From a virus, in IMG/VR virus record IMGVR_UViG_3300036828_000142, positions 8,423-72,422 of that record: DNA of 64,000 nt, one strand, 5' to 3'. This document shows, piece after piece, positions 4,128 through 64,000 of this stretch. The stretch's first letter is position 1; every line of letters begins with the position of its first letter. The notes under the pieces were generated by a model, which saw nothing but the letters and a program-made list of their open reading frames with translations, ran no database searches and was not told the origin of the DNA. The position numbers were made by a program, and so were the translations under genes.

Positions 4128-4969
4128 CCTTGGGACGCCAAGCCGAAGGAGGCGCGGATCGTGGAGAGGACGCTCCCAGCATGCAACGATCCGCGCCGCA
4201 TCTTGGGTGGCTGGTGTGCGGGCTCAACGGCCACGTTTGGGGCGAGTGGACGACCGCGTCAGCAGTTCCGACCAAAGCTCGCGAGTGCTCACGCTGCGGC
4301 AAGCGCGAGACGTTGTGGCTGAGCACCCACGGCGACCGGCGTGCCGAGGCTCGCGTCCCAGCCGTCGAGTTTGACCCCGACCGCCCGACCGTGATCCAAC
4401 GATCCTGGGCCGCGCTGTCGAGGGCGGCACGCTGGTTGGCGGGGTTGGTCGCGGCAGGCGCTCGGATCGTCGCAGGGTGGCTTACAGCAGCCCGCAGAGC
4501 CTCCCGGCCGCACTGGGAGTACGCGAAATACGTCGCCCGGCACAAGCGGTTCGTGTACGTCGCCGGTCGCCAGCTCAAAGCGCCGTGGTGGCGGCTCGTG
4601 ATCCACGACCGCTCGAAGCTGAGCCGCGCGGAGTGGGGGCCGTACGTTCGCATGTTCTACCGCCCCGACATCCCACGCCGCGAGAAGCAGGCGGCGTTTG
4701 ACAAGGCGTGGCTGCACCACCAGCATCACAACCCACACCACTGGCAGCACTGGCGGCTAGCCCAAGATGACGGCGAGCTGATCGTCCTGGAGATGCCGGA
4801 GAAGTTCGCTCGCGAGATGGTCGCGGACTGGTGCGGCGCGGGCCGCGCGATCACCGGCCGCTGGGACGCGCAGGGGTGGTATGCGTCCGGTGCTGGCGGC
4901 AAGATGGAGCTGCATCCCGCCACCCGCAAGCTGGTGGAACGACTACTGACCGAGGAGAGCCCACAATGA
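4124..4969 (+). CDS. Zn-ribbon plus DUF5662-like HD protein (second copy)
   Basis: CGLNGH..CSRC; HKRFV, IHDRSKL, AWLHHQHHNPHHWQHW, EMVADW. Confidence 0.7.
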   Translation: MTLGRQAEGGADRGEDAPSMQRSAPHLGWLVCGLNGHVWGEWTTASAVPTKARECSRCGKRETLWLSTHGDRRAEARVPAVEFDPDRPTVIQRSWAALSRAARWLAGLVAAGARIVAGWLTAARRASRPHWEYAKYVARHKRFVYVAGRQLKAPWWRLVIHDRSKLSRAEWGPYVRMFYRPDIPRREKQAAFDKAWLHHQHHNPHHWQHWRLAQDDGELIVLEMPEKFAREMVADWCGAGRAITGRWDAQGWYASGAGGKMELHPATRKLVERLLTEESPQ

Positions 4970-5382
4970 GTGCCAAGTGCGTGTTCGAGGACGAAGCCAT
5001 CTCGGTGGACAACGACTACCGCTGGGTGAAGGCCGCGTGGGAGAAGATCACCCGCAACGGAGCAGGCGGCACGCACGCGATCCGGCTGGCGGACCGAACC
5101 GCTGAGCGCTACGCCTGCCGCTGGTGCATCGACAAGCGCGCCGTGGCCCACGTGCAGCACACCGACGTGCCGAAGGACTGCCGCTGCATGTTCTGCGACG
5201 GCGCGATCACCATTGCGACCGACTACCGCGAGGTGTCCGGGTGGGAGCGTCTGTGGCGCGGCGGCGCTGGCGGTACGAACGGGCTGCGGCTGCGAGTCAC
5301 GTTGGGGCGCTACGCCTGCCATGAGTGCATCGACAAACAGGCGGACGGCGTGGCGGCGGAGCAGCAGGCGCTCGCGATATAG
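4966..5382 (+). CDS. Hypothetical protein with tandem duplicated Cys domain
   Basis: Two copies of C.F...AI....DYR...WE...GAGGT..(I/L)RL...RYAC..CIDK. Confidence 0.7.
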   Translation: MSAKCVFEDEAISVDNDYRWVKAAWEKITRNGAGGTHAIRLADRTAERYACRWCIDKRAVAHVQHTDVPKDCRCMFCDGAITIATDYREVSGWERLWRGGAGGTNGLRLRVTLGRYACHECIDKQADGVAAEQQALAI

Positions 5383-5436
5383 CGCCTAACGTGCGCTAAG
5401 CTGTCAGGAATCTGACGGCCCGAACGACCGAGGAGA
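5380..5436 (+). promoter_or_regulatory. Palindromic promoter element, -10 box and CGACCGAGGAG RBS
   Basis: TAGCGCCT-AAC-GTGCGCTA overlapping TAAGCT; GTCAG/CTGAC hairpin; CGACCGAGGAGA. Confidence 0.65.
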
Positions 5437-5439
5437 TAC

Positions 5440-5880
5440 ATGACCGTTCTGCAACTAGCTGATGGCGTGCGCTGGTACGTCGAGGCTCGCGAGTATCCGT
5501 CGGCGCTGATGGCCAAGCGCGCGTGGGAGCTTGCAGAGCGCAAGCTGACCCGCCGACCCGGCGACGAGGGCGTCGGCGTAACGCGCCTGGGCCCAAACCC
5601 CGAGTCGGGGGCGATCCCGTCCGGGATGCACCCACCGAAGCCTGCGGTGATCGTCGTGACTCGCTCAGAGCACATGCTGAAGCAGGCGCAGCGGCTGCTC
5701 GGCGGCGAGGCGTGGGAACCGGCGCATCTGCTGTTGGCTGCGCTGATCAGCCGTCGTGTTGAGATCGAGAAGATCGAGAAGCAGGGTGGTGGTCGTGTGA
5801 TCCTGCGGCGACCGGAGGGCAAGGGCGCGCGGATCTTCACGGACGGCAGCGTGGTCGAGCAGCCGCCGGGGCAAGGGTGA
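5440..5880 (+). CDS. Hypothetical protein
   Basis: Strong RBS, ATG start. Confidence 0.7.
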   Translation: MTVLQLADGVRWYVEAREYPSALMAKRAWELAERKLTRRPGDEGVGVTRLGPNPESGAIPSGMHPPKPAVIVVTRSEHMLKQAQRLLGGEAWEPAHLLLAALISRRVEIEKIEKQGGGRVILRRPEGKGARIFTDGSVVEQPPGQG

Positions 5881-6992: not shown

Positions 6993-7040
6993 TATCACCA
7001 GTTGTGCGCTATGCTCCAAACCGATTCCGACCGGGAGGAG
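6993..7040 (+). promoter_or_regulatory. Divergent promoter region with half-palindrome GTGCGCTA, TATGCT and CGACCGGGAGGAG RBS
   Basis: Matches the repeated motif; the minus strand has TGaTAGAGT toward the RlpA-like gene. Confidence 0.55.
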
Positions 7041-7044
7041 AGAG

Positions 7045-7278
7045 ATGCCGCCGAAGCCGAAGCAGCGTGTCCATGCGACAGACGGCCAAGGCCGACCGAC
7101 TGACGTGACGTTCACCGGCGACTCTGCGTTGCAGTGCCCGGCGTGCCTCAGCGATCAGGTTGAGTCCATCGGCGCTGTTGGTTTCGTGCCGGTCGGCGAC
7201 TCGCTGAACCCGGATGCTCCGGTGCGCCGGATGCGCTGCCGGGCGTGCGGTGGGCGTTGGTGGAGGCCGGGGCTGTGA
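7045..7278 (+). CDS. Zn-ribbon protein
   Basis: CPAC...CRAC. Confidence 0.6.
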   Translation: MPPKPKQRVHATDGQGRPTDVTFTGDSALQCPACLSDQVESIGAVGFVPVGDSLNPDAPVRRMRCRACGGRWWRPGL

Positions 7279-11432: not shown

Positions 11433-11475
11433 GCCTAAGTCGTGTGCTATCCTCGGGGGAAACCTGACCGAGGAG
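11431..11475 (+). promoter_or_regulatory. Palindrome-type promoter and GACCGAGGAG RBS
   Basis: GTGTGCTA-TCCT; GACCGAGGAG. Confidence 0.55.
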
Positions 11476-11481
11476 GATGCA

Positions 11482-12027
11482 GTGACCAAAGACGAGATGA
11501 TCGACGCCGCCGTCGCGGTGGTCGAGCAAGAAGCTCGGGAGGCGTTAGCCAAACCGAGGCCGATGACCAACGACGGGTTCGTTACAGCCCACGCTGTCGC
11601 GAGCAAGCTCGTAGCAGCAGGCGTGATCACCCACGACCGTCTGGACAGCAAGGGCATGTGGGAGCGCGAGGCTGCCCGCAAGTCGGTGGACGGCAAAGCC
11701 AAGCGTCTGCTTGACGCCGAGGCCGCGAAGCCGAACGCTCGCGTCCGGCGGTTCTCGTCCACGAAGGACGCGCCGCCCCGGCTGACGGGCACGCGCGGCA
11801 GGGGCTACGGCAGAGAGGTGACGTACACCTCAGCCGAGCTACTCGCCAAGGCGGAGGAAGTGACCGTGCAGGCCGAAGCGAAGGATCAGGCCGACGAGCT
11901 ACGGATGGACAACGCGCTCGAACAAGCAGCGGCGCTGGGACTGCCCGCCGGTCGAGCCCGAGCGCTGACGATCACGTTCACCGTGGACGAGTTCGTGACG
12001 CTGCTCCAGAAGGTGGTGAGCGGCTGA
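11482..12027 (+). CDS. Hypothetical protein
   Basis: Strong RBS, 181 aa. Confidence 0.7.
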   Translation: MTKDEMIDAAVAVVEQEAREALAKPRPMTNDGFVTAHAVASKLVAAGVITHDRLDSKGMWEREAARKSVDGKAKRLLDAEAAKPNARVRRFSSTKDAPPRLTGTRGRGYGREVTYTSAELLAKAEEVTVQAEAKDQADELRMDNALEQAAALGLPAGRARALTITFTVDEFVTLLQKVVSG

Positions 12028-13082: not shown

Positions 13083-13141
13083 CACGCATCGTGCGCTATG
13101 ATGTAGGTACAGCCAGTTGGCTGGATTCCCGACCGAGGAGA
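13080..13141 (+). promoter_or_regulatory. Palindrome-type promoter, leader hairpin and TCCCGACCGAGGAGA RBS
   Basis: GTGCGCTA-TGAT; AGCCAGTTGGCT hairpin. Confidence 0.65.
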
Positions 13142-13145
13142 CACG

Positions 13146-13322
13146 ATGAGCACCACCACTACCGAGCGCGTTGTCAGCGCCGCCTACATCGACCAAGCCT
13201 CAGCTTCGCGCAAGCGGACTCCGGACTGGCTGGTGACGGTCAAGCAGGGCTCGACCGTTCAGACCCACCGCTTCCACGACGAAGACAAGGCCAAGGCGTT
13301 CGCCGCCGGTGGCGCGAAATGA
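13146..13322 (+). CDS. Small hypothetical protein (not in ORF track)
   Basis: MSTTTTERVV...GGAK, after the conserved RBS. Confidence 0.6.
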   Translation: MSTTTTERVVSAAYIDQASASRKRTPDWLVTVKQGSTVQTHRFHDEDKAKAFAAGGAK

Positions 13323-14936: not shown

Positions 14937-14986
14937 CGCACGACGGGCGCTATACTCGCGCCTGTGCAATCCCGACCCGAGGAAGG
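14934..14986 (+). promoter_or_regulatory. Palindrome-type promoter and RBS
   Basis: TAGCGCAC-GAC-GGGCGCTA-TACT; AATCCCGACCCGAGGAAG. Confidence 0.65.
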
Positions 14987-14990
14987 TCCC

Positions 14991-15464
14991 ATGTCCGAAG
15001 ACAACGGCAGCGTTCCGCTGCCGCAGGCGAGCGAGATCGCCTTGCAGCTACACGCGCTGGTCACCGACCGGCAAAACGCGCTTGCGCAACATGACCTCGT
15101 GCGCGACAAGATCGTCACCGAGCTACGCACCTACGAGAAGACGCTGGCAGCGCTCACTGGGGAGCCGAAGAAAGCGGGGAGGCCAAAGGCGAAGGCGGCG
15201 ACCGAGAGCACCGCGAAGAAAGTCGGTGACGAGCGTCTGGCTGCCATCGAGCAGCTTGTACGCGAATACGCCGAAGATCACGAGGAGTTCCGCCAAGTGG
15301 ATCTGCGCAGCGCGTACGGCACGTTGCCGGACGGCGGCTCGTTCACCTCCGGCATGTCAGCCATCGCGTTCGAGGAACTGCGCCAGCGCAACGTGCTGCG
15401 CGTCGCGAGGGTTGACGGCAACTCGAAGTTCTACCGGCTGACCCGCGAAGCGCTGAAGCCATGA
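14991..15464 (+). CDS. Coiled-coil plus putative winged-helix DNA-binding protein
   Basis: Coiled N-terminus, KKAGRPK linker, wing-like C-terminus. Confidence 0.55.
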   Translation: MSEDNGSVPLPQASEIALQLHALVTDRQNALAQHDLVRDKIVTELRTYEKTLAALTGEPKKAGRPKAKAATESTAKKVGDERLAAIEQLVREYAEDHEEFRQVDLRSAYGTLPDGGSFTSGMSAIAFEELRQRNVLRVARVDGNSKFYRLTREALKP

Positions 15465-21916: not shown

Positions 21917-21975
21917 AAGCGCACGATCTGTGCTAGTATTGTTGGTGCGGGCAGGTGTCCGCATCGACCGAGGAG
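21917..21975 (+). promoter_or_regulatory. Palindrome-type promoter, hairpin and CGACCGAGGAG RBS
   Basis: AAGCGCAC-GAT-CTGTGCTA-GTATT; TGCGG...CCGCA hairpin. Confidence 0.65.
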
Positions 21976-21981
21976 CAGAGC

Positions 21982-23538
21982 ATGACCCCCACACTCAAGA
22001 CCGTTTACGAGCGCCAGCAGGACGCCGCCGAAGCGCAGCGCCAAGTGTCCGCTCTCTACGAAGACATCTACTGGAGCCTGGAGCCCAAGGCACGCGCGAG
22101 CGCCAACCTCCACGAGCACCCCGACGTGCTCATGGCGCAGGCCGCTGCTGAGAAGCTGGCCGTCGAGGTTGCGCACCTGCGCGACCTCGTGGGTGGGCGC
22201 GTGTTCCGCGTCGTTGACTCGAAGCTGAGCGCGCTGAACGAGCGGATCGCCAAGCTGAACAAGAAAGCCGTCAAGCTCGGGACCGACCCGATCCTGCTGA
22301 CCGCCAGCTACGAGAAGGACCAGATCAAGCGCATGGTCATCACCAACCCCGAGAGCTACCAGGCGGTTGGGTTCATGGACGGCATCAACGGCCACGACGA
22401 GGTCATCGACTTCACGTACGTCACCGTTGACGGACCCACGCCGATGCTCCCCGGATTCGTGTTCATCGCGACCCTCGATCACGACACCGACGACGACGAA
22501 AACGTCGGCATCCGCCGCGCGCCAGTCGGCACCGGACTGATCAACCACATCGGCGAGGAAGCCGCCAAGGCCGTCGAAGCAGCCGACCTGACCGCCTACC
22601 GGCACGCCGACCCCGACTGCGACCACTGCAAGCTGGACCGCAAGCGCAAGCAGACGTACGTGCTGTTCGAGGTCGCGACCGGCGAACTGCGGCAGATCGG
22701 CACCAACTGCGTCAAGGACTACATCCCCGGCGCGAACAACCCCGAGCGCGTCGCAGCGTGGGCAGAGTGGCTCCACGGCCTGTACGCCGACCTCGGCTTC
22801 GAGAGCGGCGACGACGGGTTCGGCGACATCGGCGTCGGCGGTGGACGGATCGCGATTCCCACGCAGAGCTACCTGAACAACGTCGCGGCGGTCATCCGCG
22901 AGATCGGGTGGACACCCCGGTGGAACAAAGACGGCTACGGCGACTTCGCCCGCAACTACGGCGCGACCGCTGACCGCGCGAAGGACAACTACCTGGAGCG
23001 CAACGCGAAGCTGCGGATCGAGGTGATCTCCGCTGATGTTGAGCTTGCGACCGTGGCGCTGACATGGGTCCGGGACGACCTCGCTGAGCGCGACGAACTG
23101 AACGAGTTCGAGCACAACCTCACGACGTACGCCAAGAGCGACTATCTGCCCGAGAAGGGCGACGGGTTCATCGCGTCGATCATCGGCGCGTACCAGCGCG
23201 AACTGGCTCGCAAGCTGGAGGCCGAGCAGGCCGCGAACTCCGAGTGGATCGGCCAGGTCGGAGATCGGATCAAGGGACTGAGGTTCACCGTCACGTTCGT
23301 CCGGGGCTTCGAGGGTCAGTACGGCACCCGCTGGATGACCAAGGGCTACGACGCGGACGGCAACGGTCTGATCTGGTGGGGTGCCGGTGGAATGGACCAG
23401 GGCGTCACGTACACGTGCTCCGCGACGGTCAAGGCGCACGAGATGGACAAGTTCAATGGCGGCGGGAAGGTCACGCAGGTCACGAACCTGCGCTCGATCA
23501 CCCCGGTTGAGGCAGACCCGGCGCAACAGACCCTCTGA
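21982..23538 (+). CDS. Phage protein with Zn-binding motif and C-terminal OB-like fold
   Basis: CDHC..RKRKQTY...QIGTNC; EWIGQVGDR...FEGQYG...DADGN..W. Confidence 0.7.
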   Translation: MTPTLKTVYERQQDAAEAQRQVSALYEDIYWSLEPKARASANLHEHPDVLMAQAAAEKLAVEVAHLRDLVGGRVFRVVDSKLSALNERIAKLNKKAVKLGTDPILLTASYEKDQIKRMVITNPESYQAVGFMDGINGHDEVIDFTYVTVDGPTPMLPGFVFIATLDHDTDDDENVGIRRAPVGTGLINHIGEEAAKAVEAADLTAYRHADPDCDHCKLDRKRKQTYVLFEVATGELRQIGTNCVKDYIPGANNPERVAAWAEWLHGLYADLGFESGDDGFGDIGVGGGRIAIPTQSYLNNVAAVIREIGWTPRWNKDGYGDFARNYGATADRAKDNYLERNAKLRIEVISADVELATVALTWVRDDLAERDELNEFEHNLTTYAKSDYLPEKGDGFIASIIGAYQRELARKLEAEQAANSEWIGQVGDRIKGLRFTVTFVRGFEGQYGTRWMTKGYDADGNGLIWWGAGGMDQGVTYTCSATVKAHEMDKFNGGGKVTQVTNLRSITPVEADPAQQTL

Positions 23539-25203: not shown

Positions 25204-25266
25204 TAGCGCATAGCGTGTGCTAGGTTGTTGGTGCGCACGACATTGGTGCGACATCGACCGAGGAGA
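25204..25266 (+). promoter_or_regulatory. Palindrome-type promoter and CGACCGAGGAGA RBS
   Basis: TAGCGCAT-AGC-GTGTGCTA-GGTT. Confidence 0.65.
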
Positions 25267-25271
25267 TTCAG

Positions 25272-25496
25272 ATGACCGACGAGAACTGCACCTGGCTGAT
25301 CGAGGTCGCGTCCGGCAACCCCGAGCCCGACTTCCCCGAGGACCTATACCGCACCGTCGAGTGCGGCGGCAAGTTGACCTTCAACGAGTACGGCTCCTGG
25401 ACCTGCGAGTACGGCCACGAACACGTCAGCTACGACGACCCGGCACGCGACGCTTACGAGGCCGAGCAGGTCTTTCGGGAGCGCCAAGAGGGCTGA
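25272..25496 (+). CDS. Small acidic hypothetical protein
   Basis: Conserved RBS; Cys/His residues. Confidence 0.65.
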   Translation: MTDENCTWLIEVASGNPEPDFPEDLYRTVECGGKLTFNEYGSWTCEYGHEHVSYDDPARDAYEAEQVFRERQEG

Positions 25497-25498
25497 GC

Positions 25499-25546
25499 TA
25501 GCGCACGATTGGTGCTAAACTGTAAGGCGTGACCACGACCGAGGAG
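25499..25546 (+). promoter_or_regulatory. Palindrome-type promoter and CGACCGAGGAG RBS
   Basis: TAGCGCAC-GAT-TGGTGCTA-AACT. Confidence 0.65.
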
Positions 25547-25552
25547 CACGCA

Positions 25553-25879
25553 ATGAGCTTTGACGAGTACGACCCCCGCGACGGCGACGATGTCTACGAC
25601 GCCTGGGTCGAAGCGCAGCACGAGAAGTGGGCGGACACCGCCACCGAGTGCGGCAACTGCGGCGAGCTTTGGCAGGCGGGCGAGCACCGCGCGACCAGGA
25701 TCGACCCCGGCTACTACGAGCAGCCGACCTGCCCGCGCTGCGGCGAGTGGAGCATCGGCGACCCGGAGAAGGAAGACGACGAGTCGGACGACGAGCCGGT
25801 CCCAGCCGACACTGGGTGGATCAAAGACCTGTTCGCTGAGCAGTTCCCCGCCGACCCGTCCGAGGAGAAGCCGTTCTGA
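25553..25879 (+). CDS. Acidic Zn-ribbon protein
   Basis: CGNC...CPRC; D/E-rich. Confidence 0.65.
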   Translation: MSFDEYDPRDGDDVYDAWVEAQHEKWADTATECGNCGELWQAGEHRATRIDPGYYEQPTCPRCGEWSIGDPEKEDDESDDEPVPADTGWIKDLFAEQFPADPSEEKPF

Positions 25880-26199
25880 TGGGCTACGACATCGTCACTC
25901 TCGAAGATTGCGCGTCGTGCTTCGGCGTCTACGACGTTGAGGGCTCGAAGGGCGACACGTACGTTGTCCAGTTCCACGGCGAGACGGGCGTGCACTGCAC
26001 CTGCCCCGGCTTCAAGTACCGCCAGGACTGCAAGCACGTCAGCTACGTCTACAAGACCGCGTGCATGCAAAACCCCCAGTACAACAGCGGCAAGCCTGAC
26101 CCGGCGATCCGCCCACGCGACTACACGTACGACGCCTTCTCGAAGACGCCGTGCCCCGCGTGCGGCGGACCGACGGTCTACGTCCGGCGAGCCGTCTGA
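25879..26199 (+). CDS. SWIM zinc-finger protein
   Basis: GSKGDTYVV...CTCPGF...CKHV. Confidence 0.75.
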   Translation: MGYDIVTLEDCASCFGVYDVEGSKGDTYVVQFHGETGVHCTCPGFKYRQDCKHVSYVYKTACMQNPQYNSGKPDPAIRPRDYTYDAFSKTPCPACGGPTVYVRRAV

Positions 26200-57978: not shown

Positions 57979-58686
57979 GTGAGCTACCAGCCAGGCCGAC
58001 CGCCGTACCTGACGCCGAACTACGACTTCCCGGTGCCGGGCGGCACGGGCCTGGCTGACTACATCTCCTCGTTGGAGGCGTTCGGGAACGCGGTGGACGC
58101 GCAACTGAAGGTCTTCGAGAACATCCTCGACCCGCTGAACGCGGCGCAGCCGCTGCTGGTCGCGGCGCTGCCGACCACCAACCTCGTGGACGGCATGGAG
58201 GTCTACCTCCAAACCTCAACGATGGCGACCAACGGAACCGCGTGGCACCTGCGCTACCGCGCGGCAGCGCCAGCAGCGACCCGCTGGGAGTTCGTTGGTG
58301 GTGCGCCTATGCAGCAGACGGTCAACGGTGGTGCTGGTGGCGGCGGCACGTACGTCGGACCGCTCGCCTCGGGGCTGAACCCCGTGCCGGGCGGACCGAG
58401 CGTCGTGGTGCCACGCCCCGGCGATTACATCGTCGCCTTCGGAGCGACCGTCCAGTGCGACAGCAACGACACCGTGCACATCGGGATCGACGGTGGTGGG
58501 CTGACCGCGACCGCTGCCCCGATGATCGAGGTTGCTGACAACGTGTCGCTGGACACCAGCTCGCTGTCCGTCCGCCGGAACGTCGCGACCGCGACCTCGA
58601 CGCTGGCGATGTTCGCCGACACGGCTAGCAGCGACGTGTACGTCGGCGCTCGCTACCTCGCGGTCACCCCGATCAGGCTCGGCTGA
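57979..58686 (+). CDS. Fibre/baseplate-associated protein
   Basis: GGAGGAG SD; TPNY..P.P N-terminus; beta-sandwich C-terminus. Confidence 0.65.
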   Translation: MSYQPGRPPYLTPNYDFPVPGGTGLADYISSLEAFGNAVDAQLKVFENILDPLNAAQPLLVAALPTTNLVDGMEVYLQTSTMATNGTAWHLRYRAAAPAATRWEFVGGAPMQQTVNGGAGGGGTYVGPLASGLNPVPGGPSVVVPRPGDYIVAFGATVQCDSNDTVHIGIDGGGLTATAAPMIEVADNVSLDTSSLSVRRNVATATSTLAMFADTASSDVYVGARYLAVTPIRLG

Positions 58687-58687
58687 G

Positions 58688-59926
58688 ATGCCGAACACCT
58701 GGGACAGCCTCCGGGCGCTCGGGACCTGGGACTACATCGCCCAGCTATACGCCACCTGGGACGACCTCTACAACGACGTGCGGCAGCCCGCGCCGCCGCC
58801 AGGACCGATCCCAGGACCGCAGGCCGGAGTCACCCCAGACCTCGCTGGACTGAGCCTCGGCGGCGCGTACCAGGCGGGGCTCGCAGCGGGGTTTGAGAAC
58901 TTCAAGGTGGTCGCCTACCGGCAGACGTGGATGCTCGATGAGGCGTACTGGTTCCGGGAGGTGTCCCCAGCCGTCGGGTACGTCGCGCAGGTCGTGTCGC
59001 CGGGCGACGGCCCAAGCAGTCCGAGAACCGCGTCGGACGGGTCGTTCTACACCACCGTGGCTACGGTCGGAGTGCCCGACCAGCTCCCCGATCCCGGCGA
59101 TACGGTCGCGACCAACGCGACCCTCTGCTTCGTCTTTCAGATAGCCGACGACCGCGCGCAGCCGAACGATATCGTGGACTCCGGCGTCGATCCCGTGACC
59201 GGGGTGATGGCGTGGTGGGAATACTCGTTCGCTGCCAGCGCCGTGCCCGGCACCTTGCAGGCCGACATGACGCTGTACAACGGTCCGCCGATGACCCCGG
59301 TGGACGTGGCCGACGCCGAATGGCCGCAGGTCGCGGTGGACCCGCTGTTGATCTTCACCGCCCCGCCGCCGGTCATCCCCGACGACCTGATCAGCGACGT
59401 GCCGCCGTTCGAGCAGGAGAGCTACGAGATCACCGCCGTGCTGCGCGTCGTTGCGAACGAGCTGGGACGGATCGCCGCTGCGCAGGGCGGAGCCACCCTT
59501 GGGAATGATGGCAAGATCATCGTGACCGGGCTGGCCGCACAGTGGTTCCCGCTGAGCGCCGACGTGCTCCTCGGAACGTTCGAGGCGATGCTCGGGCTGC
59601 CGGTCGATCCACCCGACGTGCAACTGAACGTTCGGCGCAACCTGGTGCTGGCGTACCTGCGCCGACTCCGGGTCGAAGGCACCGGACTTGACTGGATCGC
59701 GAGCATGAACTCGCTCGCGGGCACCGCGTGGGACTACGCCGAACACGACCCCGCGAACCCGTCCTCACCGGCGGCGTACACGCTCAACGTGAACATCCCC
59801 GAGGTGCTCGCACGGGTCGGGTGGAACTTCGTGCGGGACATCACCCCGGCGCACATCGGCATCAACGAGGGCTACACCGGCGGCTGGCTCGTTGGCATCT
59901 CCGACATCGGCATCGACCTGTTGTGA
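58688..59926 (+). CDS. Baseplate wedge protein (XkdU/tail I-like C-terminus)
   Basis: QWF..SA..L..FE..LGL...RR; PAH. Confidence 0.65.
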   Translation: MPNTWDSLRALGTWDYIAQLYATWDDLYNDVRQPAPPPGPIPGPQAGVTPDLAGLSLGGAYQAGLAAGFENFKVVAYRQTWMLDEAYWFREVSPAVGYVAQVVSPGDGPSSPRTASDGSFYTTVATVGVPDQLPDPGDTVATNATLCFVFQIADDRAQPNDIVDSGVDPVTGVMAWWEYSFAASAVPGTLQADMTLYNGPPMTPVDVADAEWPQVAVDPLLIFTAPPPVIPDDLISDVPPFEQESYEITAVLRVVANELGRIAAAQGGATLGNDGKIIVTGLAAQWFPLSADVLLGTFEAMLGLPVDPPDVQLNVRRNLVLAYLRRLRVEGTGLDWIASMNSLAGTAWDYAEHDPANPSSPAAYTLNVNIPEVLARVGWNFVRDITPAHIGINEGYTGGWLVGISDIGIDLL

Positions 59927-59944: not shown

Positions 59945-61075
59945 GTGAGCAAACACCGACAGCTCCTCTACGGGCAGCCTGTGCCGCAGAGCTTCCTGGA
60001 CGCCATGCAGGAGTTCATCGGCACGCTGGCCTCAAACTTCGCGTTGACGATCCCGCAGGGCTCGATGAACCAGGTGCAGGTCGTGGCGGGAGCCGACAAC
60101 ACCCAGGTGGGCATCGGGATCAACGGGCTGTGGCGCTACATCACAGCGACGATCACGACCGTCGTCAGCGGCGCGGCGGGCACCTACGACCTGTATGTCA
60201 CGACCGGCAACAACTCGTTCCCGGTCAACCCGACACCACCCCCACCCGAGCTTGACCAGACGAGCTACGGGTTCGCGCTGACCGCCGTCGCGACCGGAAC
60301 GCAACCGACCGGCGTCGCGCACTTCCGGATGGTCGGCCAGGCGCTCACCGACGGCACCCGGATCATCGCGCTGCGCCAGCTTGTCGGCGGGGCCGTGGAC
60401 GGCCAACAGCTCCTGCAACCCGGCATGATCCAGACGACCGCAGCCACGACCATTCCGCCCGGCTGGCTGCTGTGCAACGGGCTCGCGGTGTCGCGCACCA
60501 CCTACTCCGCGTTGTACGCGGCGCTCGGCGGGCCGAACTCCCCGTGGGGGCAAGGCGACGGGTCCACCACCTTCAACGTGCCGGACCTACGCGGCAAGGT
60601 GCAGGTCGGAGCCGGTGCGGGCCCTGGGCTCACGAACCGCGCGCTCGCCGCTCAGGCCGGTGTCGAAGCGGTCGCGCTCAACGACCTCCAGTCGGGTGTC
60701 AACCGCTACGGCTCGACGGGCTACGTCAGCAACGACCACTCCCACGCCGTTCCCGGCCAGTGGACCGGCGGGCAGAACCAGAGCCACATCCACACGTTCT
60801 ACGGCGGGCAACTGACGATCCCGGTCGCCGGATCGTGGAGCTACAGCTCCGGTAACCCGGCCGGGCCCTGGACGGGGGTTTACGTCGCCTCGGGCGGCTA
60901 CACGTACGTCAGCGGCACCGACGGCAACAGCGTGGACCACCAGCACTACGTCAACCAGGTCCAGTCCGGTGGCATCAGCGCCAACCACAACCACGCCTTC
61001 AACGCCCGCAACGCTGACCAGTCGCACGACAACATGCCGCCGTTCGCAGCGGTCAACGTGCTCATAAAGACCTGA
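59945..61075 (+). CDS. Tail fibre with collar domain
   Basis: PGMI...PPGWLLCNG..VSRTTY..L...GDGSTTFNVPDLRG; HxH repeats; HDNMPPF. Confidence 0.85.
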   Translation: MSKHRQLLYGQPVPQSFLDAMQEFIGTLASNFALTIPQGSMNQVQVVAGADNTQVGIGINGLWRYITATITTVVSGAAGTYDLYVTTGNNSFPVNPTPPPPELDQTSYGFALTAVATGTQPTGVAHFRMVGQALTDGTRIIALRQLVGGAVDGQQLLQPGMIQTTAATTIPPGWLLCNGLAVSRTTYSALYAALGGPNSPWGQGDGSTTFNVPDLRGKVQVGAGAGPGLTNRALAAQAGVEAVALNDLQSGVNRYGSTGYVSNDHSHAVPGQWTGGQNQSHIHTFYGGQLTIPVAGSWSYSSGNPAGPWTGVYVASGGYTYVSGTDGNSVDHQHYVNQVQSGGISANHNHAFNARNADQSHDNMPPFAAVNVLIKT

Positions 61076-61089
61076 CTAAGCTATGCAGC

Positions 61090-61509
61090 GTGAAAGACAT
61101 AGCCGAGGTGCAGGCAGCATGGTTGGCAGGCTTCTACGAGGGCGAAGGCTCGTTTCACATGGGCGCAAAGAGTGGTGGCAAGTACAAGCAGTTGATGGTG
61201 CAGATCGCCCAGCACGATCACGAATGCCCGGAAACGTTGACCCGGCTCGTGGAGTGGACCGGCTTCGGAAGGATCTACGGGCCGTATCGCAGTAACGGCT
61301 TCCACACTCGTCTCGACCGCCCGCTAAAGGATCGCTGGTTCTGGCAGTTGTCGGGAGAACGTGACGTACGGGCTTTCTTTGATGCGACCCGTCCGTGGCT
61401 GTCAGCGTGGCGGTGTGAACAGATTGATCGCGTGCTGGCGGACTGGAGCGCTTATCGCGGAACGCTCAAGTATCCGAACAAGGGCTTCAAGAAGCCTGAT
61501 CAGACCTAG
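61090..61509 (+). CDS. Free-standing LAGLIDADG homing endonuclease
   Basis: AWLAGFYEGEGSF, GFGRIYGP, W.W, PWL. Confidence 0.85.
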   Translation: MKDIAEVQAAWLAGFYEGEGSFHMGAKSGGKYKQLMVQIAQHDHECPETLTRLVEWTGFGRIYGPYRSNGFHTRLDRPLKDRWFWQLSGERDVRAFFDATRPWLSAWRCEQIDRVLADWSAYRGTLKYPNKGFKKPDQT

Positions 61510-61550
61510 CTCCGTGCTGATCAAGACGTAGCTCCTGTTATGCTCTAAGC

Positions 61551-61660
61551 CGCCGCTGGGCAAGTCGAGTATCCCCTCTCCTCGGTCGGGATTGGTCAAG
61601 CTCGACACCCAGCTTCGCGAAACGGCCTTCCTGGGTTCTCTCCAGGTGGGCCGTTTCCTG
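61551..61660 (+). ncRNA. Predicted small RNA with anti-RBS loop
   Basis: TGtTATGCT extended -10 at 61536-61544; nested stem with loop CTCTCCTCGGTC; terminator hairpin; no plausible ORF. Confidence 0.55.
61619..61657. terminator. Hairpin terminator between convergent transcription units
   Basis: GAAACGGCC.TCCTGG...CCAGG.GGGCCGTTTC. Confidence 0.7.
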
Positions 61661-61675
61661 TGTAGTGGGGTGCGC

Positions 61676-61771
61676 TCAGATCGCGCCGACGTGTGATGCG
61701 GTGATGATCGTGAAGACCAGCACCGCGATCAGCATGGCGAACGAGAGCCACCAGAGTTCTTTGGAGGGCAT
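61676..61771 (-). CDS. 31-aa single-TM peptide
   Basis: GGAGG SD; MPSKELWWLSFAMLIAVLVFTIITASHVGAI. Confidence 0.45.
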   Translation of the reverse strand: MPSKELWWLSFAMLIAVLVFTIITASHVGAI

Positions 61772-61798
61772 ACCCCTCCCACTACCCGCCGAATGGCG

Positions 61799-62089
61799 TT
61801 AGGGAGCCTCCACGGAGCCCACAGGGGTCCTTCCGAACGCTTTGCGCGCCTTCTCTCGGCTCCCGGCGACTGTCCAGACCGTGACGTTGTGCAGCGTCTC
61901 GTACGCCCGGCAGATGCCGTCGGTCGTCAGCGCTTCCAGCCGGGGGCGTCCGTCGCGGTCCTGGAGGTCGAGCGGGTCAAGGCAGTACGGCCACCCGTTC
62001 TTGTCGTGCGCCTTGTGCAGATCGAAGCTGTCAATCGAGTGGAAGTGCCTGCCGCAACTCGCGCAGTGGTAGGTGCAGGTGGTGCTCAT
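61799..62089 (-). CDS. FDxH(R/K)-type Zn-binding protein
   Basis: HCASCGRHF.S..SFDLHK...CLDP. Confidence 0.65.
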   Translation of the reverse strand: MSTTCTYHCASCGRHFHSIDSFDLHKAHDKNGWPYCLDPLDLQDRDGRPRLEALTTDGICRAYETLHNVTVWTVAGSREKARKAFGRTPVGSVEAP

Positions 62090-62328
62090 GCGTCCCTGAA
62101 CGTACCGCACGTCCAGCAGCGCTTGCACGCCGACCCGCCGAAGCTCCCGGTCGAGCCCGTTGCGGCCCTGCGACGGTGACCGCACCGGCACATCGTCGTC
62201 CACTCCCGCTCCCCGGCGATGATGTCCTGGTCGTAGTCCGGGTGCGCTGTCAGGTGCTCGAACGGCGTCTCGACCTCGGGCGCAAGCTCCACGTCAGCGT
62301 CCCAGGCGGGCCGACGGCGCTCGGGCAC
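62086..62328 (-). CDS. Small Cys-rich protein (start uncertain)
   Basis: CRCGH...C..C..C..F. Confidence 0.45.
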   Translation of the reverse strand: MPERRRPAWDADVELAPEVETPFEHLTAHPDYDQDIIAGEREWTTMCRCGHRRRAATGSTGSFGGSACKRCWTCGTFRDA

Positions 62329-63241
62329 TGAGCGGCTGCTCCTCGACTACCTCACCCTCGATGGGGATGCTGCCGCCGTTCTTGAGCACGAAGTCCACCA
62401 CCTGCTGAAGGATCTCGGTGCGCTTCATCTGATCCACCCCCGCGAGCGTCAGCCGGATCTTCTGCGGCAGGAAGCTCCCCGGCCGCACCCGGTTCGCTTC
62501 ATCGAACGCGATCTGCAACCGCTTCGCGAGGTCCTCGTCCGAACCCCAGTCGGGCTCCTGGCTGACGACATCCTGCTCCACGATCCCACCAAGGTCCGGG
62601 TCATACCGCGCGCCGACCTCGTCCTCGGGGATCAGCCCCGTGATCGAGAACGCCTTGCGCAACGCCATCGACTCGGCGACCTTCAGGATCATCGCGTCCG
62701 GGTACTGCGTCCACGACTTCACGCCCCGCCGGTAGCTGGAGAACTTAGCCAGGAAGAACGTTGGCCTGCGCCCCTCGCGGAACACGCGGCACCACGCGCC
62801 GATGATGTCCTGCTTCATCCGCTTCTCAGCCTCCACCGCCGCGTACGTGTGCTCAAACCCCTCAGGGGTGCGGGCGATGATGTCCGAGGCGTAGATCACG
62901 TCCCCCTCCATCCCCCCGAACGCCTCGTAGCGGTTCGCGATCACCAGCAGCCCATCCCGCGCGATGATCGTCTTGAACGTCGGCGGCTCCCCGTCGCGCC
63001 CCGGCATCTTCGCCAGGTACACCTGACCGGCAAACGGGTCGAGCTTGTACCGGCCCACGAGTTCAAGGAACAGCAGAAACTCGCTGTCACCCGCTCCCCT
63101 CGCGACGGTGCGCTTCATCAACGCAAGCTGCTCGTTGTCGAACGCGAACCGTGCGGGGCTCGTCAACGGTGTCGGCAGGTGAACCACCTGACGGCCGGGC
63201 GGCTGCGCCGTCCCATCTGGCTGTACCTCGGTCTTAGCCAT
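62294..63241 (-). CDS. Bet/RecT-like single-strand annealing protein
   Basis: EF.LFL..LDPF..QVY, RDG...IA, GAWC.V, W..YP.AM..KVAE..ALRKAF. Confidence 0.85.
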   Translation of the reverse strand: MAKTEVQPDGTAQPPGRQVVHLPTPLTSPARFAFDNEQLALMKRTVARGAGDSEFLLFLELVGRYKLDPFAGQVYLAKMPGRDGEPPTFKTIIARDGLLVIANRYEAFGGMEGDVIYASDIIARTPEGFEHTYAAVEAEKRMKQDIIGAWCRVFREGRRPTFFLAKFSSYRRGVKSWTQYPDAMILKVAESMALRKAFSITGLIPEDEVGARYDPDLGGIVEQDVVSQEPDWGSDEDLAKRLQIAFDEANRVRPGSFLPQKIRLTLAGVDQMKRTEILQQVVDFVLKNGGSIPIEGEVVEEQPLSARAPSARLGR

Positions 63242-64000
63242 CTTGCTGCTTCCTCTCATTGGCGAGCGCTATCGAGCGCTCCAGTCGGTCAAGCAGGTCC
63301 GGGTCCTCCTCGGGCTCCACGTCCGGCTTCGGGATATGCACCGTGAACTGTGTGCCCACTGTCTCACGATACAGGTCATCCAACGTCTCGCCGGTCTGTA
63401 GCGCGCGTTCCATCTGCTCACGGGTTGGGCGCTCTACACGATGGATCACGCGGTGTCCGTATACGCGGTTCGCCTTCGCGTCCTTCACGGGGATCGGGCC
63501 GTGGGTGCCCGCCCATACCTTCAGCGCCTCCTTGTTCTGCTTGATCGCCGCCTCGGCGACAAGCACCTGCGCCGCGACCGTCGCAGCCTCGTCGCCCGAC
63601 GCGATCCTGCCGGTGCGCTTCGCGGTCGGGAAGATCGGACACTTGGTCGGCCGGGGGCAGTAGGAGCAGTGCCCGCCCGGTGACGGCGACCAGTGCGACT
63701 CCTGCACCGAGCGGTCGAAGCGTTCCACGAGCGCGGTGACCGCCTCCTCGATCTCCTCCAACTGGTCGCGGTACAGCGTCGCCTCGCGCGACTGCGAGTA
63801 GCGCGGGTAGAACTCCCGCAACGTCACCGAGTTCAAAGTCGGGTGGTTGCGCATCACCAACAGCCCGTAGAACCGCTGCTGGAAGAACCCGCCTTCGCTG
63901 ATCTCCGACGGCGGCGGCAGCCACCAGCCCGTCTTGTAGTCGATCACGACCCCGCGATCCAGGTCCGCACCCTCGGCGAACAGCACGTCGAGCTGGCAGG
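63234..64000 (-). CDS. PD-(D/E)XK RecB/Cas4-like exonuclease (5' end outside window)
   Basis: LDVL...VIDYKTG, QQRFY, C..C.....CP; adjacent to Bet. Confidence 0.8.
   Translation of the reverse strand, partial: CQLDVLFAEGADLDRGVVIDYKTGWWLPPPSEISEGGFFQQRFYGLLVMRNHPTLNSVTLREFYPRYSQSREATLYRDQLEEIEEAVTALVERFDRSVQESHWSPSPGGHCSYCPRPTKCPIFPTAKRTGRIASGDEAATVAAQVLVAEAAIKQNKEALKVWAGTHGPIPVKDAKANRVYGHRVIHRVERPTREQMERALQTGETLDDLYRETVGTQFTVHIPKPDVEPEEDPDLLDRLERSIALANERKQQDG

What the first reader, a model, noticed from the sequence alone, without database searches (positions are those of the whole stretch)
61536..61660. Predicted phage sRNA displaying an anti-RBS loop against a whole gene class
Seen: extended -10 TGtTATGCT, then nested stems GCTGGG/CCCAGC (61555/61608), GTCGAG/CTCGAC (61564/61601) and ATCCC/GGGAT (61571/61588) around a 12-nt loop CTCTCCTCGGTC, then a terminator. 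61577-61592 is the reverse complement of ATCCCGACCGAGGAGA. Perfect pairing is 15 nt to 13127-13141; 12 nt to 4948, 5425 and 25255; 11 nt to 21965 and 25536; 10 nt to 11466; bulged to 14968 and 7026. Most targets also carry the palindromic promoter. Inference: a trans-acting multi-target antisense RNA at the end of the late operon that shuts off translation of early genes through a shared RBS tag, or decoys a factor that binds it. I know of no described system of this form.
Basis: partly seen in the sequence, partly recalled or inferred. Interest (0 to 1): 0.87.

Follow-up and report, generated by a model that had tools for sequence, protein, structure and literature searches.

The report
Phage small RNA mirroring ribosome-site tag
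An uncultured soil phage and ten relatives keep a small folded RNA whose unchanging tip is the mirror image of a private ribosome-binding tag on a set of their non-structural genes, so one RNA probably switches that gene set off, though the RNA itself has not been seen.

Summary
An extended -10 box (61536-61544), a three-stem hairpin (61555-61613) and a GC-rich terminator hairpin (61619-61657) lie between the last plus-strand gene and a convergent minus-strand operon. The module occurs in 10 related viral contigs. The -10 box and a 15-nt core, CTCCTCGGTCGGGAT (61578-61592), are kept in 11 of 11 sequences. All 11 pairs of the two outer stems show compensatory changes. No conserved minus-strand ORF follows the site.

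The core is the complement of the tag (C)CGACCGAGGAG. This tag sits 3-6 nt before the start codon of 9 genes in this contig, and three weaker variants exist. It also occurs about 35 times in four relatives' records; two further copies there are the RNA locus itself.

Best reading, about 0.5: a roughly 105-nt trans-acting RNA that covers these ribosome sites and represses a set of non-structural genes. No RNA data could be found, and seed and tag are both invariant, so co-variation cannot be tested.

Cluster K mycobacteriophage start-associated sequences are the closest described parallel. Their single reverse copy also sits in a hairpin loop.

This scan has noted the same design on other genomes. 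I found no published description.

The parts
61536..61544 (+). Extended -10 promoter box TGTTATGCT (TGn + TATGCT)
   Evidence: Kept in 11 of 11 related sequences: TGTTATGCT in 8, TGTATGCT in 2, TGTATCCT in 1. The sequence between the upstream stop codon and the box differs among them. It has the same -10 type (TAnnnT after TG) as the operator-linked promoters before tagged genes. No -35 box was found by the consensus scan.
61551..61660 (+). Predicted small RNA of about 105-110 nt. The 5' end is inferred from the -10 box and the 3' end from the terminator.
   Evidence: Inference. No transcript data were available.
61555..61613 (+). Three-stem hairpin that carries the seed
   Evidence: Fold. All 11 pairs of the two outer helices show compensatory changes across 11 sequences. 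G-U cells outnumber A-C cells 28 to 6, which favours the plus strand.
61578..61592 (+). Invariant 15-nt core CTCCTCGGTCGGGAT (seed), complement of the tag ATCCCGACCGAGGAG
   Evidence: Identical in 11 of 11 sequences. That count includes 7 contigs found without using the core: 5 by protein only, and 2 more reached by protein as well as by the core pattern. The first 10 nt have a predicted mean unpaired probability of 0.50-0.63.
61619..61657 (.). GC-rich terminator hairpin between two convergent transcription units, probably bidirectional
   Evidence: The stem is conserved with 3 compensatory pairs. It is not followed by a T run, so the consensus scan does not call it.
13127..13141 (+). Tag TCCCGACCGAGGAGA, 15 nt complementary to the seed, 4 nt before the ATG of a 58-aa ORF (13146-13322)
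   Evidence: Duplex energy -33.6 kcal/mol.
4948..4959 (+). Tag of 12 nt before ORF 4966-5382. The upstream ORF's TGA stop lies inside the tag.
5425..5436 (+). Tag of 12 nt before ORF 5440-5880
11466..11475 (+). Tag of 10 nt before ORF 11482-12027 (GTG start)
21965..21975 (+). Tag of 11 nt before ORF 21982-23538 (518 aa, phrog_2319, unknown function)
25255..25266 (+). Tag of 12 nt before ORF 25272-25496
25536..25546 (+). Tag of 11 nt before ORF 25553-25879
25860..25868 (+). Weaker tag CCGAGGAGA (9 nt) before ORF 25879-26199 (SWIM zinc-finger hit at the Pfam cut-off)
14969..14986 (+). Bulged tag variant ATCCCGACCcGAGGAAGG before ORF 14991-15464
7026..7044 (+). Bulged tag variant TCCGACCggGAGGAGAGAG directly before an ATG at 7045

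Best explanation
The locus is a small-RNA gene. The parts that are shown:
- A conserved extended -10 box, a hairpin whose outer stems change by compensatory substitutions, an unchanging 15-nt apical sequence, and a conserved terminator hairpin.
- The apical sequence is the exact complement of a private, extended ribosome-binding tag, (C)CGACCGAGGAG. Of this, GAGGAG is the Shine-Dalgarno part. The CCGACC extension cannot pair with the 3' end of 16S rRNA; that rests on my recalled knowledge of the actinobacterial 16S 3' end.
- The tag stands 3-8 nt before the start codons of a set of small non-structural genes in this phage and in its relatives.

The parts that are inferred:
- The RNA, about 105 nt, is transcribed from its own promoter. 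It is probably also present on read-through of the structural-gene operon that ends just upstream.
- Its seed pairs with 10-15 nt of each tagged ribosome site and covers the Shine-Dalgarno sequence.
- Pairing blocks initiation, with likely secondary mRNA decay. One RNA thereby lowers translation of the whole tagged set while untagged structural genes go on being translated.

The logic is that of a global translational repressor of early messages, here carried out by RNA.
For: 1. The module is conserved.
- An exact search for the loop found 3 related viral contigs with the same layout. A search that did not use the loop, using only the -10 box and the terminator, found the same 3.
- Protein-led searches with the RecT-like and tail-fibre proteins reached 15 distinct contigs. 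Ten of them carry the element; 5 of those were reached by protein only. A covariance model scores 31.7-149.7 bits on the ten relatives that I searched with it.
- The other 5 contigs are uninformative or unrelated. Three end before the region. Two are lower-GC phages that share only a fibre domain and have neither the element nor the tag.

2. There is selection on RNA structure.
- On 11 sequences, 15 of 33 pairs have changes on both sides, against 4.8 +/- 1.6 in shuffles (0 of 500 reach it) and 2-5 in slid controls.
- 92.9% of cells are paired, against 30-48% when slid. Helices 2 and 3 covary at 11 of 11 pairs.
- G-U cells number 28 and A-C cells 6, which favours the plus strand.

3. The core is invariant. 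CTCCTCGGTCGGGAT is kept in 11 of 11 sequences while the flanking stems differ. One relative has a roughly 49-nt insertion just 5' of the core and still keeps it.

4. There is no conserved minus-strand ORF. Five of 11 have no start codon within 30 nt. Among the six with a start codon, most reading frames stop within about 20 codons; three frames run past the stretch I examined.

5. The tag has a matching distribution.
- In this contig, 9 plus-strand sites of 10 nt or more containing GGAG all lie 3-6 nt before start codons.
- In the relatives' records GACCGAGGAG occurs 6, 25, 1, 7 and 2 times, and the reversed control pattern 0 times in each.
- Of 44 distinct sites pooled from this contig and the fetched loci, 34 have a start codon 2-10 nt downstream. 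Five of the other 10 are the RNA loci themselves.
- Positions -1 and -2 of the tag are C in 31 and 22 of 34 sites, matching the GG of the seed.
- Each record that spans the region has one anti-tag copy only.

6. Predicted seed duplexes of -25 kcal/mol or better occur at 14 of 87 roughly called gene starts. Shuffled seeds give a mean of 1.48 and a maximum of 5 (0 of 100 reach 14).

7. Tags also occur at internal ribosome sites. At 4948 the upstream stop codon lies inside the tag. The tag is therefore not merely part of a copied promoter cassette.
Against: - No transcript evidence of any kind was available.
- The consensus scan finds no two-hexamer sigma-70 promoter and no T-tailed terminator here. 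Promoter and terminator rest on conservation only.
- Seed and tag are both invariant in all relatives, so pairing is supported by joint conservation and not by compensatory change between partners.
- The seed is predicted to be only about half accessible: 0.50-0.63 for the first 10 nt. GGGAT is mostly paired, and the core can fold on itself.
- Any C-rich loop gives strong predicted duplexes with G-rich ribosome sites. At -18 kcal/mol, 36 genes pass against 25 for shuffled seeds.
- The covariation counts were made on an alignment fitted to the model, which leans towards the structure.
- One relative's 35.6-kb fragment carries the RNA but no exact tag. This may only mean the fragment holds structural genes.
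- The timing class of the tagged genes is inferred. Eight of the 9 I scanned have no informative family hit, one is in a phrog of unknown function, and the tenth tagged ORF, before the window, was not scanned.
Confidence: 0.5

Rival explanations
1. Pairing between the RNA and the tags is real but the effect is not repression. The RNA might protect or stabilise tagged messages, tune them in a graded way, or act only as the 3' untranslated end of the structural-gene transcript rather than as a separate small RNA.
For: The element follows directly on the last gene of the plus-strand operon in every relative, so read-through transcripts would carry it. The promoter is not called by a consensus scan.
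Against: The complementarity covers the whole Shine-Dalgarno part of the tag, which in known cases blocks initiation. The -10 box is kept in 11 of 11 sequences. It stays attached to the hairpin even where an endonuclease gene has been inserted upstream in this phage.
Confidence: 0.17
2. The hairpin is a conserved structural or protein-binding RNA element, for example a 3'-end stabiliser or processing site. Its loop would be conserved for a partner other than the tags, and the complementarity would be incidental.
For: The position beside a terminator between convergent operons is typical of 3'-end elements. The core can form its own small hairpin.
Against: From base composition I estimate about 0.15 chance copies of the 10-mer complement, and about 0.005 of the 13-mer, on one strand of a 72-kb contig. 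This is my own arithmetic, not a tool result. The match is to the most repeated start-site motif of the phage, and both are kept in relatives with RecT identity down to 71% and fibre identity down to 49%.
Confidence: 0.13
3. The tag and its single inverted copy are double-stranded DNA sites for one DNA-binding protein, so orientation would not matter and no RNA pairing is involved.
For: Many tagged genes also carry a palindromic operator-like promoter, so DNA-level control exists in this phage.
Against: A DNA site does not explain compensatory changes in the stems around it or the excess of G-U over A-C cells. Of 39 tags outside the RNA loci, 34 have a start codon 2-10 nt downstream, the spacing of a Shine-Dalgarno sequence.
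Confidence: 0.08
4. The site is the ribosome-binding site, or a relic of one, of a minus-strand gene.
For: On the minus strand the sequence reads as a perfect tag. In this phage a TTG lies 14 nt downstream.
Against: Five of 11 relatives have no start codon within 30 nt. Among the six with a start codon, most reading frames stop within about 20 codons; three run past the examined stretch. The site lies beyond the minus-strand operon's terminator. In this phage the ORF would be antisense to the endonuclease gene.
Confidence: 0.02

Closest known systems
Start-associated sequences (SAS/ESAS) of Cluster K mycobacteriophages (Pope et al. 2011, PMC3203893, passages read; Adephagia paper PMC11373665, passages read; 2025 survey PMC12699233, passages read)
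   Same: - Both are private asymmetric motifs that contain the Shine-Dalgarno core plus conserved bases that cannot pair with 16S rRNA.
- Both lie 3-9 nt before start codons and are restricted to non-structural genes.
- About half of the SAS are linked to an upstream inverted-repeat promoter element.
[quoted passage not shown]
- Tested here: that reverse copy lies in the apical loop of a conserved hairpin in Anaya, Angelica, Peanam and SgtBeansprout. In Adephagia it lies in the gene 92-93 gap. The paper says late transcription appears to start there.
   Different: - The motif is different: GGGATAGGAGCCC against CCGACCGAGGAG.
- The phages are unrelated: siphoviruses of Mycobacterium against an uncultured soil phage with a tail sheath.
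- In Cluster K the anti-motif lies near the start of the late transcript, not after the last tail gene.
- Of the 9 Cluster K phages I looked at, Ekdilam, Krueger and Unicorn have only C/U-rich loops, and Hurricane and KiSi differ altogether.
- The papers leave the role of SAS open and do not propose an antisense RNA in the passages I read.
6C/B11 small RNA of Actinobacteria (PMC10470900, passages read, which cites Mai et al. 2019)
   Same: It is a trans-acting RNA with cytosine-rich hairpin loops that pair with G-rich ribosome-binding sites of many messages and repress translation, in high-GC Gram-positive bacteria.
   Different: - It is a host gene, with two loops of plain C runs pairing with about 6 nt.
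- It has no private extended tag on its targets.
- No Rfam family matches this locus at gathering score. The best weak hit is an unrelated family at E = 1.4.
c4 antisense RNA of phages P1 and P7 (review PMC12197685, passages read)
   Same: It is a phage-encoded RNA acting in trans on a phage message around its ribosome-binding site, with the complementary sequences thought to be displayed in loops.
   Different: It has one target operon (the antirepressor) and serves immunity, and it comes from enterobacterial phages. Here 10-25 dispersed genes share the target. No Rfam hit was found.
RegA translational repressor of phage T4 (review PMC3014915 seen only in the search listing; the description is recalled)
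   Same: The logic is the same: one phage product lowers translation of many early messages by occupying their initiation regions.
   Different: RegA is a protein. Here the effector would be an RNA, with specificity written into a tag on the targets.

Membership tests
Trans-acting base-pairing small RNA (general class) | Own promoter | tested here: inconclusive
   An extended -10 box is kept in 11 of 11 sequences. There is no -35 box, no consensus-scan hit and no mapped transcription start.
Trans-acting base-pairing small RNA (general class) | Conserved secondary structure with compensatory changes | tested here: met
   15 of 33 pairs have changes on both sides, against 4.8 in shuffles (0 of 500) and 2-5 in slid controls.
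Trans-acting base-pairing small RNA (general class) | Conserved, at least partly single-stranded seed | tested here: met
   The 15-nt core is invariant in 11 of 11 sequences. Predicted unpaired probability of its first 10 nt is 0.50-0.63.
Trans-acting base-pairing small RNA (general class) | Several targets with complementarity at functional sites | tested here: met
   Nine sites of 10-15 nt in this contig lie 3-6 nt before start codons. Of 44 distinct sites pooled from this contig and the fetched loci, 34 have a start codon 2-10 nt downstream.
Trans-acting base-pairing small RNA (general class) | The RNA is expressed and regulates its targets | not testable with these tools
   No RNA holder was listed for this DNA. 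The host is unknown.
6C/B11 RNA family (Rfam) | Match to the family covariance model; two hairpins with C-run loops | tested here: not met
   There are no Rfam matches at gathering score in the window. At E up to 10 the only hit is an unrelated family, at 15.3 bits against a threshold of 72.2. Only one hairpin carries a C-rich loop.
Cluster K SAS system | Motif GGGATAGGAGCCC | tested here: not met
   The tag here is (C)CGACCGAGGAG, a different sequence in an unrelated phage.
Cluster K SAS system | Asymmetric motif 3-9 nt before start codons of non-structural genes, extending beyond the Shine-Dalgarno core, with one reverse copy not at a gene start | tested here: met
   for this phage. The description of the family comes from the passages read.
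Intrinsic terminator | GC-rich stem-loop followed by a U tract | tested here: inconclusive
   A stable conserved stem is present. The tail is only partly U-rich and the consensus scan does not call it.

The most novel reading that the evidence does not exclude
Private ribosome-site tags paired with a single anti-tag hairpin RNA may be a general, repeatedly evolved timing device of actinobacterial phages. Genes to be silenced carry the tag, and an RNA made with or beside the late transcript carries its mirror image. This would be the long-sought function of the Cluster K start-associated sequences, whose lone reverse copy sits in a hairpin loop in the gap where late transcription is reported to begin.
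Probability: 0.35. Interest if true: 0.87.

Novelty: new variant of a known kind. Interest (0 to 1): 0.77.

Why it matters
If true, a phage controls a whole class of its own genes after transcription with one small RNA. The specificity comes from a private tag added to the ribosome-binding sites of the genes to be controlled. That is a compact, programmable way of switching translation.

It would also give a concrete, testable answer to a question left open since 2011: what the start-associated sequences of Cluster K mycobacteriophages are for. Those phages are cultured, can be engineered and already have RNA-seq data, so the idea can be tested directly even though this phage's host is unknown.

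The tag and anti-tag pair could also serve as an orthogonal translation switch in high-GC bacteria.

Tried and rejected
- tRNA or tmRNA: none in the window.
- Known RNA family: none.
- Cultured relatives: no nucleotide match for 60900-62300 in the phage collection. The fibre and RecT proteins give only distant hits below 60% identity. Records near the window's own may have been left out of these searches.
- Expression: no RNA holder was listed among 8 runs, all soil DNA. I did not lay reads.
None of them has both the promoter box and the terminator. These look like chance hits.
- L004 and L005, found with the 18-mer, are chance matches. One is a terminator region of an unrelated phage and the other is inside a coding sequence. 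My own rough estimate is about 2-3 chance hits for an 18-mer in a collection of that size.
- The metagenome scan with RecT added only one new contig, whose element is the same as L001's.
- A duplex threshold of -18 kcal/mol did not discriminate: 36 genes against 25 for shuffled seeds. I used -25 instead.
- Lifestyle: no tyrosine or serine recombinase in the contig. The contig is an estimated 58% of a genome, so nothing follows from this.
- Literature: three searches (and a poorly aimed) and the review read gave no description of a phage RNA aimed at a shared tag on its own genes. The ZoeJ paper was not held. The supplementary figures of Pope et al. that list the reverse SAS sites were not open to me.
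- My gene list of 87 ORFs is a crude GC3-based call. It misses real genes and includes antisense ORFs in collagen-like regions, so counts 'of 87' are approximate.

Full report
**What is there**

The window is the right-hand 64 kb of a single 72,422-bp viral contig. The contig is estimated to be 58% of a genome, so the window's end is a contig end and not a genome end.

The flagged stretch lies between two convergent transcription units.
- Upstream is the last plus-strand ORF, 61090-61509. It gives weak LAGLIDADG hits and a PHROG labelled 'HNH endonuclease'.
- Downstream is a minus-strand unit that ends with a 31-aa membrane-like ORF (61676-61771). It also contains a RecT-like gene and a large ORF at 63234-63986, which I did not scan against any family library.

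- TGTTATGCT at 61536-61544.
- Three nested stems at 61555-61613 around the loop CTCTCCTCGGTC.
- A second GC-rich hairpin at 61619-61657.

Either strand folds far better than shuffled sequence: z = -4.97 for the plus strand and -5.46 for the minus strand. No tRNA, tmRNA or Rfam family matches.

**The complementary sites**

They are more frequent than for shuffled seeds: 8 matches of 11 nt or more, against a mean of 0.58 and a maximum of 3. The reversed seed gives none.

All nine plus-strand sites of 10 nt or more that contain GGAG lie 3-6 nt before a start codon. Two of these nine lie in the part of the contig before the window.

The motif is an extended ribosome-binding site. GAGGAG can pair with the 3' end of 16S rRNA. 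The conserved CCGACC in front of it cannot; that rests on my recalled knowledge of the actinobacterial 16S 3' end.

Seven of the ten core sites follow a promoter of the TAGCGC-N7-GCGCTA / TAnnnT type. Three are internal sites in operons, and at 4948 the upstream stop codon lies inside the tag. So the tag is not simply part of a copied promoter cassette.

The tagged genes are small and mostly without family hits. They lie among non-structural genes upstream of the capsid, sheath and fibre genes. 'Early' is an inference.

**Relatives**

No cultured relative was found. Uncultured relatives were found in three ways.
- An exact search for the loop found three related viral contigs with the same layout directly after the fibre gene's stop codon.
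- A pattern that used only the -10 box and the terminator found the same three.
- Searches with the RecT-like and fibre proteins reached 15 distinct contigs.

Of those 15 contigs:
- Ten carry the element.
- Three end before the region.
- Two are lower-GC phages that share only a fibre domain and have neither the element nor the tag.

Across the 11 sequences, window included:
- The -10 box is kept: TGTTATGCT in 8, TGTATGCT in 2, TGTATCCT in 1.
- The 15-nt core CTCCTCGGTCGGGAT is identical in all. One sequence has a roughly 49-nt insertion immediately 5' of the core and still keeps it.
- The terminator stem is kept.
- The sequence of the two outer stems differs freely.

**Structure and strand**

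On the model-fitted alignment, 15 of 33 pairs show changes on both sides. Shuffles give 4.8 +/- 1.6 (0 of 500 reach 15), and controls with the partner slid by 1-3 columns give 2-5. The two outer helices covary at all 11 pairs.

The alignment was fitted to the structure, which favours it. Even so, the stems can be read by eye in the raw sequences.

G-U cells outnumber A-C cells 28 to 6. Ten of the 28 come from one invariant pair of doubtful reality. The excess points to the plus strand as the functional RNA.

The inner stem (ATCCC/GGGAT) lies within or against the invariant core, so it gives no covariation evidence. It is unpaired in three or four sequences.

**The minus-strand alternative**

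Five of 11 sequences have no start codon within 30 nt downstream on that strand. Among the six with a start codon, most reading frames stop within about 20 codons; three frames run past the examined stretch. I reject this reading.

**The tag in relatives**

In five relatives' records the 10-mer GACCGAGGAG occurs 6, 25, 1, 7 and 2 times. The reversed control pattern occurs 0 times in each.

Of 44 distinct sites pooled from this contig and the fetched loci, 34 have a start codon 2-10 nt downstream. Five of the other 10 are the RNA loci themselves.

The two bases before the 10-mer are C in 31 and 22 of 34 sites, so the tags match 12-13 nt of the seed.

Each record that spans the region has exactly one anti-tag. 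The most complete record, 110 kb and estimated 89% complete, has 24 other copies of the 10-mer on both strands and one anti-tag.

One 35.6-kb fragment has the RNA and no exact tag. It may hold only structural genes.

**How it most likely works**

Shown: a conserved, structured, plus-strand RNA module whose invariant tip mirrors a private ribosome-site tag.

Inferred:
- It is transcribed from its own extended -10 promoter, and also on read-through of the structural operon.
- Its seed pairs with the tags and covers the Shine-Dalgarno sequence.
- This lowers translation of the tagged set while untagged structural genes continue.

Predicted duplexes of -25 kcal/mol or better occur at 14 of 87 crudely called gene starts, against 1.48 for shuffled seeds. 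Looser thresholds do not discriminate, because any C-rich loop binds G-rich sites.

Against the reading:
- There are no RNA data.
- The promoter and terminator are not called by consensus scans.
- Seed accessibility is only about 0.5-0.6.
- Both partners are invariant, so only joint conservation supports pairing, not co-variation.

**Comparison with known systems**

The mechanism class is known. RNAs with C-rich loops that pair with ribosome sites of many messages include 6C/B11 in Actinobacteria. A phage RNA acting in trans at a ribosome site is known from c4 of P1/P7. This locus belongs to neither family.

The closest described parallel for the tag is the start-associated sequence of Cluster K mycobacteriophages. 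In the passages I read, its role is still called unknown in 2024 and 2025.

Pope et al. note a single reverse-oriented copy, not at a gene start, in the K1 phages. I checked this.
- In Anaya, Angelica, Peanam and SgtBeansprout the reverse copy lies in the apical loop of a conserved hairpin.
- In Adephagia it lies in the gene 92-93 gap. The Adephagia paper says late transcription appears to start there.
- The parallel is incomplete. Of the nine Cluster K phages examined, three (Ekdilam, Krueger, Unicorn) have only C/U-rich loops and two (Hurricane, KiSi) differ.

**Earlier notes of this scan**

Notes on the same genome describe the operator, promoter and tag cassette and the endonuclease insertion. 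I checked both in part.

A word search shows that this scan has reported the same design on at least eight other genomes: a private tag plus one mirror-image hairpin. Those are unchecked AI notes on other DNA. I do not count them as evidence, but they fit the idea that the design is widespread.

**Verdict**

- A conserved plus-strand RNA element: about 0.9.
- Pairing with the tags is its function: about 0.6.
- The full repression model: about 0.5.

It is a new variant of a known kind of regulation. I found no published description.

Noticed in passing
window 61090-61509 (+), with 61058-61075 and 61514-61531: A homing-endonuclease-like ORF, with weak LAGLIDADG hits and a PHROG labelled 'HNH endonuclease', lies between the fibre gene and the RNA's -10 box. 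It is absent from the near-identical relative L002, where the fibre stop is followed directly by the -10 box. A second copy of the fibre's last codons remains after the insertion.
   Followed up: partly
L175:39871-39883 (Anaya, record 59870-59882); L184:2683-2695 (Adephagia, record 58682-58694); L176, L179, L183: The single reverse-oriented start-associated sequence of K1 mycobacteriophages sits in the 10-nt apical loop of a conserved long hairpin, in a roughly 400-bp gene-free gap near the right genome end. In Adephagia that gap is where late transcription is reported to begin. Other subclusters have C/U-rich but inexact loops at the same place.
   Followed up: partly
window 5380-25521 and earlier in the contig (for example before 5425, 13127, 21965, 25255 and 25536): Palindromic TAGCGC-N7-GCGCTA elements are fused to a TAnnnT -10 box before most tagged genes, often with a short 5' hairpin. 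The RNA's own -10 box is of the same type but has no palindrome, so it would escape whatever binds the palindrome.
   Followed up: partly
window 61676-61771 (-): A 31-aa hydrophobic ORF with a strong GGGAGGGG ribosome site closes the minus-strand operon just before the shared terminator. It has no family assignment.
   Followed up: no
L010:5365-5541 (-): One relative carries a roughly 49-nt insertion inside the hairpin, just 5' of the invariant core. The insertion forms extra small hairpins, while the core and outer stems are kept.
   Followed up: no
window 4948-4959: The TGA stop of the upstream ORF lies inside the tag (cTGACCGAGGAG). Tagging therefore also occurs at internal ribosome sites of operons, not only in promoter-proximal leaders.
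   Followed up: no
whole contig (G000): The contig is estimated at 58% of a genome and a relative's record is 110 kb. The minus-strand operon at 61.7-64 kb is therefore cut by the contig end, and more tagged genes probably lie beyond it.
   Followed up: no
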